NCBI GenBank assembly: GCA_001821395.1 | Contig: MHLM01000012.1 | Span: forward strand, 32,001 to 96,000 | Length of the DNA: 64,000 nucleotides | DNA from: Candidatus Lloydbacteria bacterium RIFCSPHIGHO2_02_FULL_50_18 | GTDB lineage: Bacteria > Patescibacteriota > Minisyncoccia > Phycocordibacterales > UBA6899 | Reading direction: 5' to 3' | Shown here: positions 11,089-14,490 of the stretch, piece by piece | Position numbering within the stretch: position 1 is the stretch's first letter | How the letters are laid out: the number at the start of each line of letters is the position of its first letter | Translations under genes and position numbers: made by a program | Notes under the pieces: generated by a model | The model's input: the letters and a program-made list of their open reading frames with translations, nothing else | The model's database searches: none | What the model was told of the DNA's origin: nothing

Positions 11089-11159
11089 GCGGGATTAGTT
11101 TAGTGGCAAAATAGGAGTTTTCCAAACTCTTGTCGCCGGTTCGATTCCGGCATCCCGCA
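11089..11159 (+). tRNA. tRNA-Gly (anticodon UCC)
   Basis: Manual cloverleaf: acceptor GCGGGAT/ATCCCGC, anticodon stem GGAGT/ACTCT with loop TTTCCAA, T-arm GCCGG-TTCGATT-CCGGC, discriminator A. Confidence 0.8.
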
Positions 11160-11174
11160 CAGAAATGAGATTCA

Positions 11175-11206: not shown

Positions 11207-11467
11207 TGAACCACAGCGATGTTTCGCCAGCGGGTGAAACTGCAGGGTGGGGCCACGAATACTTACATTTTTTGTGCGAGTAGCTATAAAAAATCTAGTG
11301 ATTCGTGATCTGGGATACGAAACACTACCGATAGATGGTTGTTTTGTATGTGCGCGGAAGGCTGCCAGAATGACTTGGTCAGGGCTAAATCGGAAGGTTC
11401 TTCGACAACGACCGACTAATTTTTTCTTGTAACAGTGTTGCACGTATGGCGATGTCGGTTATATAGT

Positions 11468-12004
11468 ATGTTCATGCCAAAAAAAGAAAAGATCGGAAGC
11501 GACGGATATTCTGAGGAAATTTATGACGCTAAGCGTAATGAGCTTGAGGAGCTGGGAATTGCTTATCAGCCCCCGTCTCCGGAGCGAAATTCCGATGAAG
11601 AGTGGAAATCGCTCAACGATGAGGTCTCGCATGAGGCAAAGAAGATCATCGCAACACTCGATCGACTGAGTGCAAACGCAAAACGACTTGCCGAAAAAGA
11701 TGAGTTACATCGTGAATATCTTGGGCTGGTTCCGAGAGTAGAAGAGGCAAGAGAGGAGATCAAAAAAACTCTTGCAGAGGTTTCTGACACCGCCTCATTT
11801 GGGGTGGTGCGCGAGGCGGGGGAAGTACTGCGGATGGGCGATGAGCTTGAGGATGTATTACAAAGTGAATCGCCGGTTCAGCCGCGTTCACTCGTCAGAA
11901 TGCTTATCGAGGAGTTTTTAAATGCAAAAAAATACGTGTTGGGAAAATTGCGAAAGTGGCTCGGTTTGCAGCATCGGTATGGTGATCCGCTGCCTCCCGC
12001 TTGA
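11468..12004 (+). CDS. Hypothetical acidic coiled-coil protein
   Basis: Intact ORF whose first ATG is at 11468; ends just before a terminator. Confidence 0.5.
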   Translation: MFMPKKEKIGSDGYSEEIYDAKRNELEELGIAYQPPSPERNSDEEWKSLNDEVSHEAKKIIATLDRLSANAKRLAEKDELHREYLGLVPRVEEAREEIKKTLAEVSDTASFGVVREAGEVLRMGDELEDVLQSESPVQPRSLVRMLIEEFLNAKKYVLGKLRKWLGLQHRYGDPLPPA

Positions 12005-12023
12005 CGAATGCTTCTTGTACTAA

Positions 12024-12052
12024 AAAACCCGCCATAAGGCGGGTTTTTTAGT
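12024..12052. terminator. Bidirectional rho-independent terminator (AAAAAACCCGCCATAAGGCGGGTTTTTT)
   Basis: Perfect hairpin flanked by A and T runs, lying between convergent genes. Confidence 0.8.
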
Positions 12053-12070
12053 GTATGTTTGATTCACTGC

Positions 12071-12346
12071 TTATTCCTTGACGGCGTCCTTGAGTGCCTT
12101 TGCGGGGCGGAACTTAGGAACGCGCATTGCTGCGACCTTGATGGCCTCACCTGTGCGTGGATTGCGCGCAGTGCGTGCAGCACGAGTCTTCACGGACCAG
12201 ATGCCGAGGCCGGCAACCGAGACCTCGTCGCCCTTCTTGAGGGCTCCGGTGATCGTCTCGATCATCGTCTCAACAGCCTGCTCTGCAGCGACCTTTGTGC
12301 CGCCGAGCTTTTCGTGGACTGCCTCAACTATTGACTGCTTGTTCAT
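12071..12346 (-). CDS. hup: DNA-binding protein HU
   Basis: MNKQ..IV.A.....G.TK and GF....K..AR.ARNP.TGE signature; 91 aa from the MNKQ start. Confidence 0.9.
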   Translation of the reverse strand: MNKQSIVEAVHEKLGGTKVAAEQAVETMIETITGALKKGDEVSVAGLGIWSVKTRAARTARNPRTGEAIKVAAMRVPKFRPAKALKDAVKE

Positions 12347-12509
12347 CGTTTTCTGATTAGCAGATGCTAATAAATCTTTGTTATGTACGATCACTCGCAA
12401 TAACCCTGCATGCAGAGGTTTCTAGCCTCTATATATATTATATAGGAGCGGTACTTTCGCGCAACAGAGCCATTATTTTGCGGTGGATAACGGAATAAGT
12501 GTCAAAATA

Positions 12510-12538
12510 TTGACAAACATAAAGCAATATGCTAAAAT
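12510..12538 (+). promoter_or_regulatory. Sigma70-type promoter (TTGACA, 17-bp spacer, TAAAAT)
   Basis: Consensus -35 and -10 hexamers with a 17-bp spacer. Confidence 0.6.
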
Positions 12539-12544
12539 ATGACT

Positions 12545-12706
12545 ACGAGTGCGATCTCAGAAAATTGAGGAAAGAGTGAATCAAGAAATTTTTTACTCCA
12601 TGTCACTTCTCTTCAGCAGTATTAAGGATTTAATGGGTAATTATGCCCAGTCAGTAGTATAAAAAAGAGCAGCATTCCCGAAAAACCGCTAGACAAAGCG
12701 GTTTTT
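12545..12706 (+). ncRNA. Candidate small transcript of about 160 nt, either a small RNA or a short-ORF mRNA, bounded by a promoter and an intrinsic terminator
   Basis: Consensus promoter at 12510-12538 and a terminator hairpin AAAAACCGCTAGACAAAGCGGTTTTT at 12681-12706; only 20-29-aa ORFs lie inside. Confidence 0.35.
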
Positions 12707-12713
12707 CAACACA

Positions 12714-12741
12714 TTGACAAATCGCCCAAATCAGGTACAAT
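12714..12741 (+). promoter_or_regulatory. Sigma70-type promoter (TTGACA, 16-bp spacer, TACAAT)
   Basis: Consensus hexamers read directly from the sequence. Confidence 0.6.
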
Positions 12742-12770
12742 CACTGTAGGTCATGTAGATGGAGACATCC

Positions 12771-12875
12771 ATGGGAAACAACTGGATTGGATATTTGGCG
12801 ATAGGGTTTGTGGCATTGGTCGTGTGTTTTGGCGCTTGGGAGGCCTGGCGCGCATATCAGAAAAGACCGCGATAG
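12771..12875 (+). CDS. Unannotated small membrane protein (34 aa, MGNNWIGYLAIGFVALVVCFGAWEAWRAYQKRPR)
   Basis: GGAGA ribosome-binding site 7 nt upstream, a consensus promoter upstream, a single TM helix and a terminator hairpin at 12893-12917; it is not in the ORF track because it is shorter than the cutoff. Confidence 0.5.
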   Translation: MGNNWIGYLAIGFVALVVCFGAWEAWRAYQKRPR

Positions 12876-12892
12876 AATCTGGAGGAGCAGAA

Positions 12893-12917
12893 GCCGCTCG
12901 ACTGAGTGGCTTTTTTT
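12893..12917 (+). terminator. Rho-independent terminator
   Basis: GCCGCTCGACTGAGTGGC followed by TTTTTTT. Confidence 0.55.
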
Positions 12918-12960
12918 ATGCAGTATTCTTACTCCCTACCTACTACTTGATGCACTTTAA

Positions 12961-14490
12961 TTATCTCGCGTACTCGATGCAGCGCATCTCACGGATAACG
13001 GTTATCTTGATCTCCCCGGGATATTTCATTTCCTGCTCTATTTGAAGAGCGATATCTCGTGCGAGTGCATGTGCCTCAAGGTCACTGATTGTCTGCGGTG
13101 TAACGAAGACACGCATTTCGCGGCCAGCCTGAAGCGCGTAGGCTTTTTCTACGCCCGGTTTTGCGCAAGCAATCTTCTCAAGTTCCTCAAGTTTTTTGAG
13201 ATAATTCTCCACCGACGCGCGTCGCGCACCAGGTCTTCCTCCTGAGATCGCATCGGCAGTCTGCACGATGATCGATTCGATCGTTTCATAAGGATATTCC
13301 TCATGGTGGGATTGCATTGCCTTCACGATGCGCTCATCTGCACCGAATTTCGCTAAGATGCGCCGTCCGATCTCCACATGAGTTCCTTGCACTTCATGGT
13401 CAAGCGCCTTTCCGATGTCATGGAAGAGCGCCCCCGCTCGTGCTATCTGCACATTTGCACCCAACTCCTCCGCAAGCATGCCGGAAATATGAGCCATTTC
13501 AATGGAATGCTGAAGCACGTTCTGTCCGTAACTCGTACGGAAGTAAAGCCGTCCGAGAATAGAGACAAGACGGGGATCCATGTTGAGCACGCCGCATTCG
13601 TAGCATGCTTGTTCACCCTTCTCTTTGATGATCTTATTGATGTCGAGGCTGGCTTTTTCCACGAGTTCTTCGATCTTGGAAGGCTGAATGCGTCCGTCGA
13701 GAATAAGATTCTCGAGTGCAACACGTGCGATCTGCCGTCGCACCGGGTCAAATGCGGAAATGATGATCGTTCCCGGAGTGTCATCAACAATGAGTTCAAC
13801 ACCGGCAACGCGCTCGAAGGTGCGGATGTTGCGCCCTTCTTTGCCGATGATCTTACCTTTGATCTCATCGTTTGGAATATTGACCGCTGAGGTCATGATG
13901 TCACCGGCGGTTGACGCAGCGAGGCGTTGAATTGAGGTGGAAAGGATGTCTTTCGCGCGTCGGTCGAGCCGCTCGATGCCCTCGCGCTCCAGCTTTTGTA
14001 ATCGCACACGAAAATCTTCCTCGAACCGTTCGTCGATCTTTTTGACAAGGGCCTGCTTTGCTTCTTCCTCGGAGAGCCCCGCAACCTTCTCAAGTTCCTT
14101 CTCAACAAGCTGTTTCCGCTCTTCGATCGTTGTTTTGATGGCGCGGATCTCTTCTGCTTTTGCCTTGATATTGTCGACTTCCTTGTCGACGTCCTCTTGC
14201 TTTCGGTCGAGTGTTTCCTCCTTCTTTATGAGACGTTCTTCCGTTTTACGCCACTCGTGCTCCTTTTCCTTTTCCTGAGCACGCAATTCTTCGGCTTTTC
14301 TCTCCCCTTTTTTCTCTGATTCTTGAATGATCTTCTGCGCCTCTTCCTTTGCGGAAAGCAGCAATTGCTTGACCTCGATCTCGATCGTACCCTTTTTGCC
14401 TACAGTGAGAGCCCAGCGGATGACATATCCGGCGATAAGGCCGAAAATGCCGCTGCCCACACCAATGGCGATAACCATGGTGAAATCCAT
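12961..14490 (-). CDS. rny: Ribonuclease Y
   Basis: N-terminal TM helix, coiled coil, KH domain and HD domain (HSIEMAHISGMLAEELG, LFHDIGKA). Confidence 0.9.
   Translation of the reverse strand: MDFTMVIAIGVGSGIFGLIAGYVIRWALTVGKKGTIEIEVKQLLLSAKEEAQKIIQESEKKGERKAEELRAQEKEKEHEWRKTEERLIKKEETLDRKQEDVDKEVDNIKAKAEEIRAIKTTIEERKQLVEKELEKVAGLSEEEAKQALVKKIDERFEEDFRVRLQKLEREGIERLDRRAKDILSTSIQRLAASTAGDIMTSAVNIPNDEIKGKIIGKEGRNIRTFERVAGVELIVDDTPGTIIISAFDPVRRQIARVALENLILDGRIQPSKIEELVEKASLDINKIIKEKGEQACYECGVLNMDPRLVSILGRLYFRTSYGQNVLQHSIEMAHISGMLAEELGANVQIARAGALFHDIGKALDHEVQGTHVEIGRRILAKFGADERIVKAMQSHHEEYPYETIESIIVQTADAISGGRPGARRASVENYLKKLEELEKIACAKPGVEKAYALQAGREMRVFVTPQTISDLEAHALARDIALQIEQEMKYPGEIKITVIREMRCIEYAR

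What the first reader, a model, noticed from the sequence alone, without database searches (positions are those of the whole stretch)
12505..12917. Two consensus promoters, a roughly 160-nt terminator-bounded transcript and an unannotated 34-aa membrane ORF between hup and rny
Promoter 1 (TTGACA, 17-bp spacer, TAAAAT at 12510-12538) would drive a transcript ending at the hairpin at 12681-12706. That transcript contains only 20-29-aa ORFs, so it is a candidate small RNA or micropeptide mRNA. Promoter 2 (TTGACA, 16-bp spacer, TACAAT at 12714-12741) drives a well-formed 34-aa single-TM ORF (12771-12875) with a ribosome-binding site and its own terminator at 12893-12917. Neither is in the ORF track. 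Near-consensus promoters this strong are rare in the window.
Basis: seen in the sequence. Interest (0 to 1): 0.5.

Follow-up and report, generated by a model that had tools for sequence, protein, structure and literature searches.

The report
Novel small RNA plus micro-membrane-protein cassettes
Between the hup and rny genes of an uncultivated ultrasmall (Patescibacteria, Lloydbacteria-like) bacterium sit two self-contained mini-genes, each with its own very strong promoter and terminator: a roughly 165-nt folded non-coding RNA with no match in Rfam, and a 34-residue membrane peptide gene. Both are probably real, but they occur only in a narrow clade and their function is unknown.

Summary
P1 (12510-12538) and P2 (12714-12741) each match the sigma-70 consensus at 11 of 12 positions. 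They are the only such sites on either strand of the 64-kb window (0.77 expected by chance).

P1 is followed by a unit at 12545-12710. I find it, always with its own promoter and terminator, in 8 sequence variants from close relatives. All fold into the same three-way junction (P1, P2, P3) followed by a terminator hairpin. In the model, 93.5% of pair cells are paired, against 31-49% in slid controls, and 9 pairs show compensatory changes (0 of 500 shuffles reach this). No reading frame is conserved and no Rfam family matches. In 2 variants it is followed directly by the convergent rny, with no same-strand gene, so it is a stand-alone sRNA gene and not a leader or a micropeptide mRNA.

The 34-aa ORF (12771-12875) has a GGAG site 6 nt upstream and its own terminator. 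In the nearest genome an annotated 39-aa single-TM ORF sits at the same position. The ribosome-binding site and terminator DNA are conserved there, but the peptide sequences are not.

The two units occur independently of each other and of other small cassettes, so the hup-rny spacer is a shuffled array of small genes. Transcription and function were not tested.

The parts
12500..12515 (.). Inverted repeat TGTCAA-AATA-TTGACA that contains the -35 box of P1. It could be an operator or a back-to-back -35 element.
   Evidence: Read directly from the sequence. TGTCAAAA-N2-3-TTGACA is retained in every relative, including those that lack the sRNA.
12510..12538 (+). Promoter P1: TTGACA, 17 nt, TAAAAT (extended TG). 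It drives the sRNA.
   Evidence: Scores 11/12. It is one of only two such sites in 64 kb. The -35 is invariant in relatives and a -10-like hexamer sits at the same distance.
12545..12679 (+). sRNA core: a three-way junction. P1 is the closing stem GAGUGCGAU/AUUGCAUUC. P2 is a long hairpin with the invariant GUGAAUCA...CAYGYCAC. P3 is a hairpin whose sequence varies.
   Evidence: Fold z = -5.5. All variants share the same architecture. Covariance-model hits score 44-149 bits in 8 variants. 93.5% of cells are paired and 9 pairs are compensatory, reached by 0 of 500 shuffles. No frame is conserved. No Rfam hit.
12680..12707 (.). Terminator T1 of the sRNA. It is a symmetric A5-stem-U5 hairpin, so it could also stop minus-strand transcription coming from rny.
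   Evidence: -16.0 kcal/mol on the + strand and -17.8 on the - strand. The stem covaries: CCGC/GCGG, CAGC/GCUG, GCCUCC/GGGGGC.
12714..12741 (+). Promoter P2: TTGACA, 16 nt, TACAAT. It drives the small-ORF mRNA.
   Evidence: Scores 11/12. A TTGAC-type -35 directly after T1 is present in every relative that has a same-strand gene downstream of the sRNA (L003, L004, L090, L093, L102). It is absent where rny follows directly (L087, L097).
12761..12764 (+). Shine-Dalgarno site GGAG, 6 nt before the ATG at 12771.
   Evidence: The 9-mer ATGGAGACA is identical in L006/L092/L095, in front of their 39-aa ORF.
12771..12875 (+). 34-aa single-pass membrane peptide gene encoding MGNNWIGYLAIGFVALVVCFGAWEAWRAYQKRPR.
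   Evidence: ORF list. Maximum Kyte-Doolittle hydropathy over a 15-residue window is 2.6. The positional counterpart P0001 (39 aa) is annotated at NCBI. No Pfam or NCBIfam family matches.
12892..12917 (+). Terminator T2 of the small-ORF mRNA: 8-bp stem, GACU loop, U7.
   Evidence: -17.3 kcal/mol, z = -4.5 on the + strand. On the - strand it is weak and has no U-tract. The DNA is conserved with L006 (AAGCCGCTC.AC..GGCTTTTT).

Best explanation
The hup-rny spacer holds two independent, tandem mini-genes on the + strand.

**1. A stand-alone structured small RNA.** It runs from about 12545 to about 12708, roughly 165 nt. It is transcribed from near-consensus promoter P1 and ends at intrinsic terminator T1. 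The RNA folds into a three-way junction. Stems P1 and P2 are conserved in sequence, including the internal-loop nucleotides GUGAAUCA and CAYGYCAC. Stem P3 is conserved only as a helix.

**2. A small mRNA.** It runs from about 12748 to about 12917, from promoter P2 to terminator T2. It encodes a 34-aa peptide that, by the positive-inside rule, would sit N-out/C-in as a single-pass membrane protein.

**What is shown.**
- The sequence signals are present.
- The RNA unit is conserved from its predicted +1 to its terminator.
- The RNA structure is supported by covariation.
- The RNA is non-coding.
- The two units occur independently of each other and of any particular neighbouring gene.

**What is inferred.**
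- Both units are transcribed.
- The peptide is translated.
- Mode of action of the RNA: my best guess, at roughly 40% of the probability mass, is that it acts in trans as a protein-binding or scaffold RNA, not as an antisense regulator. The reason is that conservation sits in helices and internal loops and not in an exposed single-stranded seed. It also has no complementarity to its neighbours. Base-pairing with unlinked mRNAs is the next option, at about 30%.

The RNA is accessory, not housekeeping. Closely related strains lack it at this locus, including some with an identical or 99%-identical HU protein.
For: **Signals.**
- Promoters.
- Terminators.

**Organism.** A Patescibacteria MAG, Lloydbacteria-like.

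**sRNA homologues.** They were found by nhmmer, covariance model and pattern scan in L003, L004, L090/L091, L093/L094, L087/L088/L089/L096, L097 and L102.
- In every variant whose upstream flank is held, the RNA follows a TTGACA-type promoter. L102 starts inside the RNA.
- In all 8 it is followed by a terminator.

**Structure.**
- The single-sequence folds share one architecture.
- 36 pairs, 93.5% of cells paired, against 31-49% when the partners are slid.
- 9 pairs have changes on both sides, reached by 0 of 500 shuffles. All 5 distal P3 pairs covary.
- L087 and L097 replace P3 with an unrelated hairpin.

**Non-coding.** Stops and frameshifts occur in all three frames across the variants.

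**Stand-alone.**
- L087/L096 and L097 have the convergent rny immediately after the terminator.
- Elsewhere the downstream gene differs: the 34-aa TM ORF, a 65-aa protein, or a 76-aa TM protein.
- The RNA is absent from L006/L092/L095, L098, L099 and L101.

**No complementarity to neighbours.** The z-score is 0 or higher.

**Small ORF.**
- The Shine-Dalgarno spacing is right, and the ORF nearly fills its transcript.
- The L006 counterpart has conserved ribosome-binding-site and terminator DNA and the same TM plus WR plus basic-tail layout.
Against: - There are no transcriptome data, so neither transcript has been observed.
- The RNA family is tiny: 8 variants from one narrow clade. Stems P1 and P2 show only one-sided (G-C/G-U) changes and a few mismatches, so they are supported by conservation and not by covariation.
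- The exact register of P2 is ambiguous. I read two alternative pairings by hand from the alignments.
- The covariance-model alignment is fitted to the model structure.
- The two peptides share no detectable sequence similarity, and no other homologue exists among 5.8 billion protein clusters. The coding claim therefore rests on architecture and flanking signals alone.
- The proposed protein-binding mode has no direct support. No partner protein is linked to the RNA.
Confidence: 0.6

Rival explanations
1. Transcript 1 is a cis-acting leader or riboswitch. The three-way junction would be an aptamer and T1 its expression platform. Read-through would control the gene downstream, or would produce antisense RNA into rny.
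For: - The RNA has an aptamer-like three-way junction with sequence-conserved core helices and a variable peripheral stem.
- A terminator follows immediately.
- In 5 of 8 variants a same-strand gene follows. In L003 the contig ends before one can be seen.
- In the window, rny has no good minus-strand terminator of its own, so sense/antisense interplay is conceivable.
Against: - In L087/L096 and L097 no same-strand gene follows.
- The downstream genes are unrelated to one another.
- Each downstream gene has its own strong promoter between T1 and its ribosome-binding site.
- In L006/L092/L095 the same small ORF is expressed from P1 with no RNA element.
- By inspection I found no conserved antiterminator pairing that covaries with the very different T1 stems.
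- P1 and T1 coexist in every minimum-free-energy fold.
- No Rfam riboswitch matches.
Confidence: 0.1
2. The pair is a type I toxin-antitoxin module. The 34-aa hydrophobic peptide would be the toxin and the adjacent sRNA its RNA antitoxin.
For: - The peptide is small and single-TM with a basic tail, like Fst, Ldr or TisB-type toxins (recalled from memory).
- A strongly expressed sRNA lies next to it.
- The locus is patchy and variable.
- The peptide evolves fast.
Against: - The sRNA and the ORF are on the same strand and do not overlap.
- No complementarity exists: the duplex energy of the sRNA against the ORF mRNA is no better than shuffles (z = +2.2, +1.0, 0.0), and the longest exact complement is 7 nt of A-run.
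- The two parts occur separately. L006/L092/L095 have the ORF without the sRNA. L087/L097 have the sRNA without the ORF.
- No toxin family matched in Pfam or NCBIfam.
Confidence: 0.04
3. The sRNA is a trans-acting base-pairing regulator. Its conserved 5' end (ACGAGUGCGAU) or the P2 apical loop (AAUCAAG / CCAUGU) would be a seed for unlinked mRNAs.
For: - The size, promoter and terminator layout is typical of bacterial base-pairing sRNAs.
- The first 11 nt are nearly invariant, and P1 shows no compensatory change, so its conservation could reflect a seed and not a helix.
Against: - The 3' strand of P1 is equally conserved, and 95% of its cells are paired.
- No target stands out in the 64-kb window (which is uninformative), nor among the neighbours.
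- Most of the conserved nucleotides lie inside helices.
Confidence: 0.2
4. The 34-aa ORF is a chance ORF inside a second non-coding transcript.
For: - There is no amino-acid similarity to the positional counterpart.
- There are no homologues in the protein database.
- A 34-codon open frame has roughly a 20% chance per frame in about 49% GC sequence (my estimate).
Against: - The conserved GGAG sits at optimal spacing in both lineages.
- Both ORFs begin right after it and end 17-35 nt before the terminator.
- Both encode a hydrophobic helix of about 19-20 residues followed by (E/D)xWR and a basic tail.
- The P2 transcript has no exceptional RNA structure (z = -1.2).
Confidence: 0.15

Closest known systems
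Stand-alone bacterial small RNAs with a sigma-70 promoter and an intrinsic terminator (for example 6S RNA, and Y-RNA-like or other protein-binding sRNAs)
   Same: - It is a discrete unit of about 165 nt in an intergenic region.
- It has a strong promoter and a Rho-independent terminator.
- It has a stable conserved fold with paired 5' and 3' ends.
- It is non-coding.
   Different: - No Rfam family matches, including 6S.
- The fold is a three-way junction, not the rod with a central bubble that defines 6S.
- It is accessory and restricted to a narrow clade.
- No partner protein is linked to it.
Riboswitch or orphan-riboswitch-like aptamers built on a three-way junction
   Same: - The architecture is a three-way junction.
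- The core helices and internal loops are conserved in sequence, while a peripheral stem is variable but base-paired.
- A terminator lies immediately 3'.
   Different: - It is not consistently upstream of any gene.
- A separate promoter lies between it and the next gene.
- No alternative antiterminator pairing is seen.
- It matches no known riboswitch class.
Small single-pass membrane proteins and type I toxins (Fst, Ldr, TisB, and AcrZ/KdpF-like regulators)
   Same: - It is 34 aa with one hydrophobic helix and a basic C-terminus.
- It has its own promoter, ribosome-binding site and terminator.
- It was missed by annotation.
- Its sequence evolves rapidly.
   Different: - It has no antisense partner.
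- It has no family match.
- It is not next to a transporter or other obvious client.
- Toxicity was not tested.

Membership tests
Any Rfam 15 family | The covariance-model score reaches the family's gathering threshold. | tested here: not met
   In the window only two tRNAs pass. At E up to 10, the region and six relatives give only terminator-type partial hits, and no family recurs over the core.
6S RNA | A rod of about 180 nt with a closing stem, a large central bubble and a terminal stem; detectable with RF00013 or related models. | tested here: not met
   No 6S hit even at E up to 10. The covariation-supported fold is a three-way junction with two self-contained hairpins.
Riboswitch / transcription-attenuation leader | It lies in the 5' UTR of the gene it controls, consistently across homologues. 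| tested here: not met
   Two of 8 variants (L087/L096 and L097) have no same-strand downstream gene. The others have unrelated genes with their own promoters.
Riboswitch / transcription-attenuation leader | Mutually exclusive terminator and antiterminator pairings. | tested here: inconclusive
   By inspection I found no antiterminator, and P1 and T1 coexist in all minimum-free-energy folds. I did not run a systematic search of suboptimal folds.
Type I toxin-antitoxin | The antitoxin RNA is complementary to the toxin mRNA, either as a cis-antisense overlap or through an extended trans duplex. | tested here: not met
   The two are on the same strand and do not overlap. Duplex energies are no better than shuffles.
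Type I toxin-antitoxin | Toxin and antitoxin are inherited together. | tested here: not met
   The ORF occurs without the sRNA in L006/L092/L095. The sRNA occurs without the ORF in L087/L096/L097.
Type I toxin-antitoxin | The peptide is toxic when over-expressed. | not testable with these tools
   This needs an experiment.
Sigma-70-type promoter | -35 and -10 hexamers with 16-18 nt spacing. | tested here: met
   Both sites score 11/12 and are unique in the window. The -35 is conserved in relatives. Activity was not tested.
Intrinsic (Rho-independent) terminator | A stable GC-containing hairpin followed by a U-run. | tested here: met
   T1 folds at -16.0 and T2 at -17.3 kcal/mol, each with a U5-U7 run. 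The stems covary. The simple scanner did not call them. Function was not tested.
Bona fide small membrane protein gene | A Shine-Dalgarno site plus start codon, a hydrophobic helix, and a reading frame kept in orthologues. | tested here: inconclusive
   The Shine-Dalgarno site and the TM helix are met. One positional orthologue keeps an ORF of similar design. There is no sequence similarity, and two sequences are too few for a dN/dS test.

The most novel reading that the evidence does not exclude
The RNA is a new class of structured RNA specific to Lloydbacteria-type Patescibacteria. It would work with the nucleoid protein HU, for example as an HU-bound nucleoid-associated or HU-titrating RNA. 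HU is known (recalled from memory) to prefer junction and kinked nucleic acids.

The reasons to consider this reading:
- In every variant whose upstream flank is held (7 of 8), the RNA is divergently paired with hup, either through a shared, invariant palindromic -35 region or, in L097, one promoter-terminator unit away from it.
- Everything on its other side is shuffled.

Alternatively, it could be a free-standing ligand-sensing aptamer.
Probability: 0.1. Interest if true: 0.75.

Novelty: new member of a known kind. Interest (0 to 1): 0.42.

Why it matters
Regulatory RNA biology in Patescibacteria (the Candidate Phyla Radiation) is essentially uncharted. Full-text searches found no paper on sRNAs in this group, and a 2024 perspective on their biology never mentions them.

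This finding offers a concrete candidate that can be tested:
- a covariation-supported structured RNA driven by the strongest promoter type in the window;
- a neighbouring micro-membrane-protein gene that annotation missed;
- a locus where small promoter-gene-terminator cassettes are visibly shuffled between near-identical strains.

The limits are plain. The family is tiny, it is accessory, and its function is unknown. It is therefore a useful lead and not a surprise that changes a field.

Tried and rejected
- **Rfam.** I searched at gathering thresholds and at permissive E-values, on the window and on six relatives. Only terminator look-alikes came back.
- **Exact-sequence look-up of the peptides.** The 34-aa and 38-aa sequences are not on record as called genes.
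- **Profile search with the two small peptides.** It returned only L006's own annotated 39-aa protein.
- **First metagenome pattern (ACGAGTGCGATCTC...ATTSAGGAAR).** It gave 0 hits. A relaxed pattern gave 2 loci. Viral contigs gave 0 hits twice, so there is no sign of a phage origin.
- **nhmmer and covariance-model searches of 80 GTDB HU loci.** They found no further homologues. The RNA is therefore not a general feature next to hup in Parcubacteria. It could still sit elsewhere in those genomes, which I could not scan.
- **Window-wide RNAduplex target scan.** It was uninformative: only the self-antisense stands out, and the long-loop duplexes are meaningless.
- **A resemblance I noticed.** The P2 sequence GAGGAAAG looks like the RNase P CR-I motif (from memory). 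I rejected it as chance. The RNA is about 135 nt, no RNase P model hits even at E up to 10, and the RNA is absent from close relatives.
- **SRP RNA and Y RNA.** I considered both from memory and dropped them. There is no domain-IV-like motif, no GNRA loop, and no Rfam hit.
- **Micropeptide mRNA reading of transcript 1.** Rejected because no frame is conserved.
Full report
**Context**

The window comes from an uncultivated Patescibacteria (CPR) bacterium.
- Its HU protein is 99% identical to that of a Candidatus Lloydbacteria MAG (L006, JAYUQK010000056). All other close HU loci are from Parcubacteria or Paceibacterota-type MAGs.
- The finding lies in the 614-bp spacer between hup (12071-12346, minus strand) and the 3' end of rny (12961-14490, minus strand).

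**1. The observation**

Promoters:
- P1 is TTGACA-17-TAAAAT at 12510-12538, with an extended TG. P2 is TTGACA-16-TACAAT at 12714-12741. Each matches the sigma-70 consensus at 11 of 12 positions.
- I scanned the whole 64-kb window on both strands. These are the only two sites at 11/12 or better. First-order Markov random sequences of the same composition give 0.77 +/- 0.94 such sites. Two of them, 204 nt apart, on the same strand and in one spacer, is not a chance pattern.

Terminators:
- T1 (12680-12707) folds at -16.0 kcal/mol (z = -6.9).
- T2 (12892-12917) folds at -17.3 kcal/mol (z = -4.5) and is followed by seven U.
- The simple terminator scanner listed neither. For T1 the reason is that the hairpin is symmetric (GAAAAACCGC...GCGGUUUUUC), so the U-run is absorbed into the stem. 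It folds equally well on the minus strand (-17.8 kcal/mol), which makes it a bidirectional terminator.

Small ORF:
- The 34-aa ORF at 12771-12875 is preceded by GGAG (12761-12764) at a 6-nt spacing.
- The in-frame ATG at 12759 would give 38 aa but has no Shine-Dalgarno site. It would lie only about 11 nt from the predicted transcript start.

One detail of the finding is slightly off. Transcript 1 also contains a 37-aa GTG-initiated ORF (12549-12662).

**2. What transcript 1 is**

Fold of the window sequence:
- The stretch 12545-12712 folds far better than shuffles (-47.5 against -28.5 +/- 3.5 kcal/mol, z = -5.5).

How I found relatives:
- An exact-protein look-up of HU, and of close HU variants.
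- A look-up of a 65-aa neighbour protein.
- A degenerate DNA pattern scan of metagenomes.

The homologues:
- nhmmer and a covariance model built from five sequences (R1) identify eight distinct variants of the element: the window, L003, L004, L090 (same as L091), L093 (same as L094), L087 (same as L088, L089 and L096), L097 and L102.
- Scores run from 44 to 149 bits.
- In every variant whose upstream flank is held, sequence conservation starts at ACGAGTGCGAT, 6-7 nt after a -10-like hexamer. That is where a transcript from the TTGACA promoter should start. L102, a short Logan contig, starts inside the element.
- In all eight the element ends at a hairpin with a U-run. The stem of that hairpin differs between variants but stays paired: CCGC/GCGG, CAGC/GCUG, GCCUCC/GGGGGC.

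Architecture. All variants whose full length is held fold on their own into the same shape:
- **P1** is a closing stem, GAGUGCGAU/AUUGCAUUC.
- **P2** is a long hairpin. Both strands and the apical flanks, GUGAAUCA and CAYGYCAC, are nearly invariant.
- **P3** is a hairpin of variable sequence. L087 and L097 carry entirely different P3 hairpins.
- The terminator follows.

Covariation on the model-guided alignment of eight sequences:

| Measure | Observed | Control |
|---|---|---|
| Pair cells forming standard pairs | 93.5% | 31-49% when partners are slid by 1-3 columns |
| Pairs with changes on both sides | 9 | reached by 0 of 500 column shuffles |
| Distal P3 pairs that covary | 5 of 5 | not applicable |

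- P1 and P2 vary only by one-sided G-C/G-U/A-U changes. They are supported by conservation and not by covariation. The register of the lower P2 helix is ambiguous.

Other properties:
- No reading frame is shared. All three frames carry stops in several variants, and indels shift the frame.
- Rfam gives nothing at curated thresholds. At E up to 10 it gives only terminator look-alikes, both in the window and in six relatives.

The element is therefore a structured, non-coding RNA gene that belongs to no Rfam family.

**3. Stand-alone gene, not a leader**

What lies 3' of the RNA differs between variants:

| Variant | Downstream of the sRNA terminator |
|---|---|
| Window | P2, then the 34-aa TM ORF |
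| L004, L090, L102 | A TTGACA promoter, then a 65-aa soluble protein (MPKKEKF...) |
| L093 | A 76-aa TM protein |
| L003 | A TTGACA -35 box, then the contig ends |
| L087/L096, L097 | Nothing on the same strand; the convergent rny stop codon follows within about 50 nt |

Close relatives that lack the RNA at this locus:
- In L006, L092 and L095 the same P1, with the same palindromic -35 region, directly drives a 39-aa TM ORF.
- In L098, P1 drives an 84-aa homologue of the 65-aa protein.
- L099/L100 and L101 have neither.
- L092/L095 and L093/L094 encode the identical HU protein yet carry different cassettes.
- None of the 80 HU loci from GTDB species representatives has the RNA.

Conclusions from this pattern:
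- The spacer is an array of small promoter-gene-terminator cassettes that are gained, lost or exchanged between very close strains.
- The sRNA is one such cassette. It is accessory, and it is independent of the small ORF.
- The short repeat ATTGACAAA at both P1 and P2 offers an obvious route for deleting the sRNA by recombination. That step is inference.

**4. The 34-aa ORF**

Evidence that it codes:
- A correctly spaced GGAG.
- An ORF that fills its transcript: about 23 nt of 5' UTR, and 17 nt from the stop codon to the T2 stem.
- A hydrophobic helix of about 19-20 residues (Kyte-Doolittle maximum 2.6), followed by EAWR and a basic tail.
- A positional counterpart in L006/L092/L095, MNLENMSFIFVGLLCVAWTFFDSWRVVKYAREGRADELF, which is annotated at NCBI as P0001.
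- At the DNA level the 9-mer ATGGAGACA and the terminator (AAGCCGCTC.AC..GGCTTTTT) are conserved between the two lineages, while the coding part is not.

Evidence that leaves it open:
- BLASTP finds no similarity between the peptides.
- The profile search of 5.8 billion clusters finds nothing else.
- Pfam and NCBIfam give nothing.
- The P2 transcript has no exceptional RNA structure (z = -1.2), which fits an mRNA.

My reading is a real but very fast-evolving small membrane protein gene, at about 0.7 to 0.8 probability.

**5. Mechanism**

Antisense or toxin-antitoxin relationships with the neighbours are not supported:
- The sRNA and the ORF are on the same strand and do not overlap.
- Duplex energies of the sRNA against the small-ORF mRNA, the hup leader and translation-initiation region, and the rny translation-initiation region are no better than shuffles. 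The longest exact complement is 7 nt.
- The parts occur separately.

A riboswitch reading is weak for the reasons given in section 3.

What remains is a trans-acting RNA:
- Conservation sits in helices and internal loops (P1, P2), while a peripheral helix (P3) is kept only as structure. For that reason I favour a protein-binding or scaffold role (roughly 40%) over base-pairing with unlinked targets (roughly 30%). Nothing here tests either.
- The only constant neighbour is hup. In the seven variants whose upstream flank is held, the RNA is transcribed divergently from hup, either from a shared control region that contains an invariant inverted repeat (TGTCAA-N4-5-TTGACA) or, in L097, one promoter-terminator unit further away. 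A functional link to HU is a speculative but testable idea.

**6. Comparison and novelty**
- The RNA is a new family of a familiar kind: a stand-alone bacterial sRNA with a sigma-70 promoter and an intrinsic terminator.
- It is not 6S, SRP RNA, RNase P RNA, a known riboswitch or a type I antitoxin, by the tests in the membership table.
- The peptide is a new instance of the familiar class of unannotated small membrane proteins.
- I found no literature on sRNAs in Patescibacteria.

**Verdict**
- Novelty is moderate. The clade is narrow, there are no expression data and the function is unknown.
- Interest: 0.42.

Noticed in passing
window 12347-12442 (minus strand); also L004, L006, L007, L087, L093, L097-L101 upstream of hup: hup has a conserved, structured 5' leader of about 90 nt behind a TTGCGC-16-TATAAT promoter (-35 at 12464-12459, -10 at 12442-12437). 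It holds an invariant hairpin AGAGG...CCUCU, the palindrome CUGCAUGCAG, a middle hairpin that covaries, and the hairpin UUAGCA-UCU-GCUAA just before the start codon. There is no recognisable Shine-Dalgarno sequence. It could be an autoregulatory element of HU. No Rfam hit.
   Followed up: partly
window 12500-12515: The -35 box of P1 is one arm of an inverted repeat, TGTCAA-AATA-TTGACA. The repeat is conserved in all relatives, including those without the sRNA. In L101 it is extended into a full hairpin (GAAAAACTGTCAAAAATTGACAGTTTTTC). It could be an operator or a back-to-back -35 element.
   Followed up: partly
window 12483-12491: GTGGATAAC lies between the hup promoter and P1. It matches the DnaA-box consensus TGTGGATAA (from memory) at 8 of 9 positions. 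Several relatives keep it in similar form (GTGGATAAC/GGGGATAAC/GTGGACAAC).
   Followed up: no
window 12892-12960 and 12680-12707 (minus strand): rny (stop codon at 12961) has no convincing terminator of its own. T2 is weak on the minus strand and has no U-tract there. The next good minus-strand terminator is the reverse of T1. The rny 3' UTR may therefore run antisense across the whole 34-aa ORF. L006 instead has a separate bidirectional hairpin right after rny.
   Followed up: partly
L004:1-160, L090:1-195, L091, L102:269-466, L098:1063-1317: A 65-aa protein of unknown function (MPKKEKF(I/V)VATKKE...PLGEYR..EFA.H.LP; 84 aa in L098) is another cassette at the same locus, with its own TTGACA promoter and AAAGGAG ribosome-binding site. 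Only 3 clusters exist in the 5.8-billion-cluster protein database, and there is no Pfam or NCBIfam match.
   Followed up: partly
L093:619-849 (same as L094): A 76-aa membrane protein (MSFYDLVSQTYAEQGLLITVLISVFVAVIYGIITILCVRVIIWGLGVGWRSSERIEEK...) follows the sRNA in this variant. Like the 34-aa and 39-aa peptides, it has a W-R motif immediately after the hydrophobic stretch.
   Followed up: no
L097:905-1050 (minus strand): In this more distant relative an extra promoter-to-terminator unit of about 95 nt sits between hup and the sRNA: TTGACA-16-TATTAT ... GGCCCCGACAGAGATGTTGGGGCC-U-run. It has no convincing ORF and may be another small RNA cassette.
   Followed up: no
L005:1-123; L102:1-30: L005 shares only the first 14 nt of the sRNA (ACGAGTGCGATCTC) and then diverges completely. 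L102 has the sRNA from P2 onward but a different 5' end. These could be recombinant variants or chimeric short-read contigs.
   Followed up: no
L092/L095 versus L093/L094: These contigs encode the identical HU protein (P0005) but carry different cassettes upstream: the 39-aa ORF alone, or the sRNA plus the 76-aa protein. The L092 upstream region becomes identical to L006 about 130 nt from hup. This points to recombination within the spacer, or to assembly chimeras.
   Followed up: no
window 11435-12055: A 189-aa ORF with no Pfam family lies downstream of tRNA-Gly (11089-11160). It converges with hup on a long bidirectional terminator at 12016-12055 (18 bp; AAAAAACCCGCC...GGCGGGTTTTTT).
   Followed up: no
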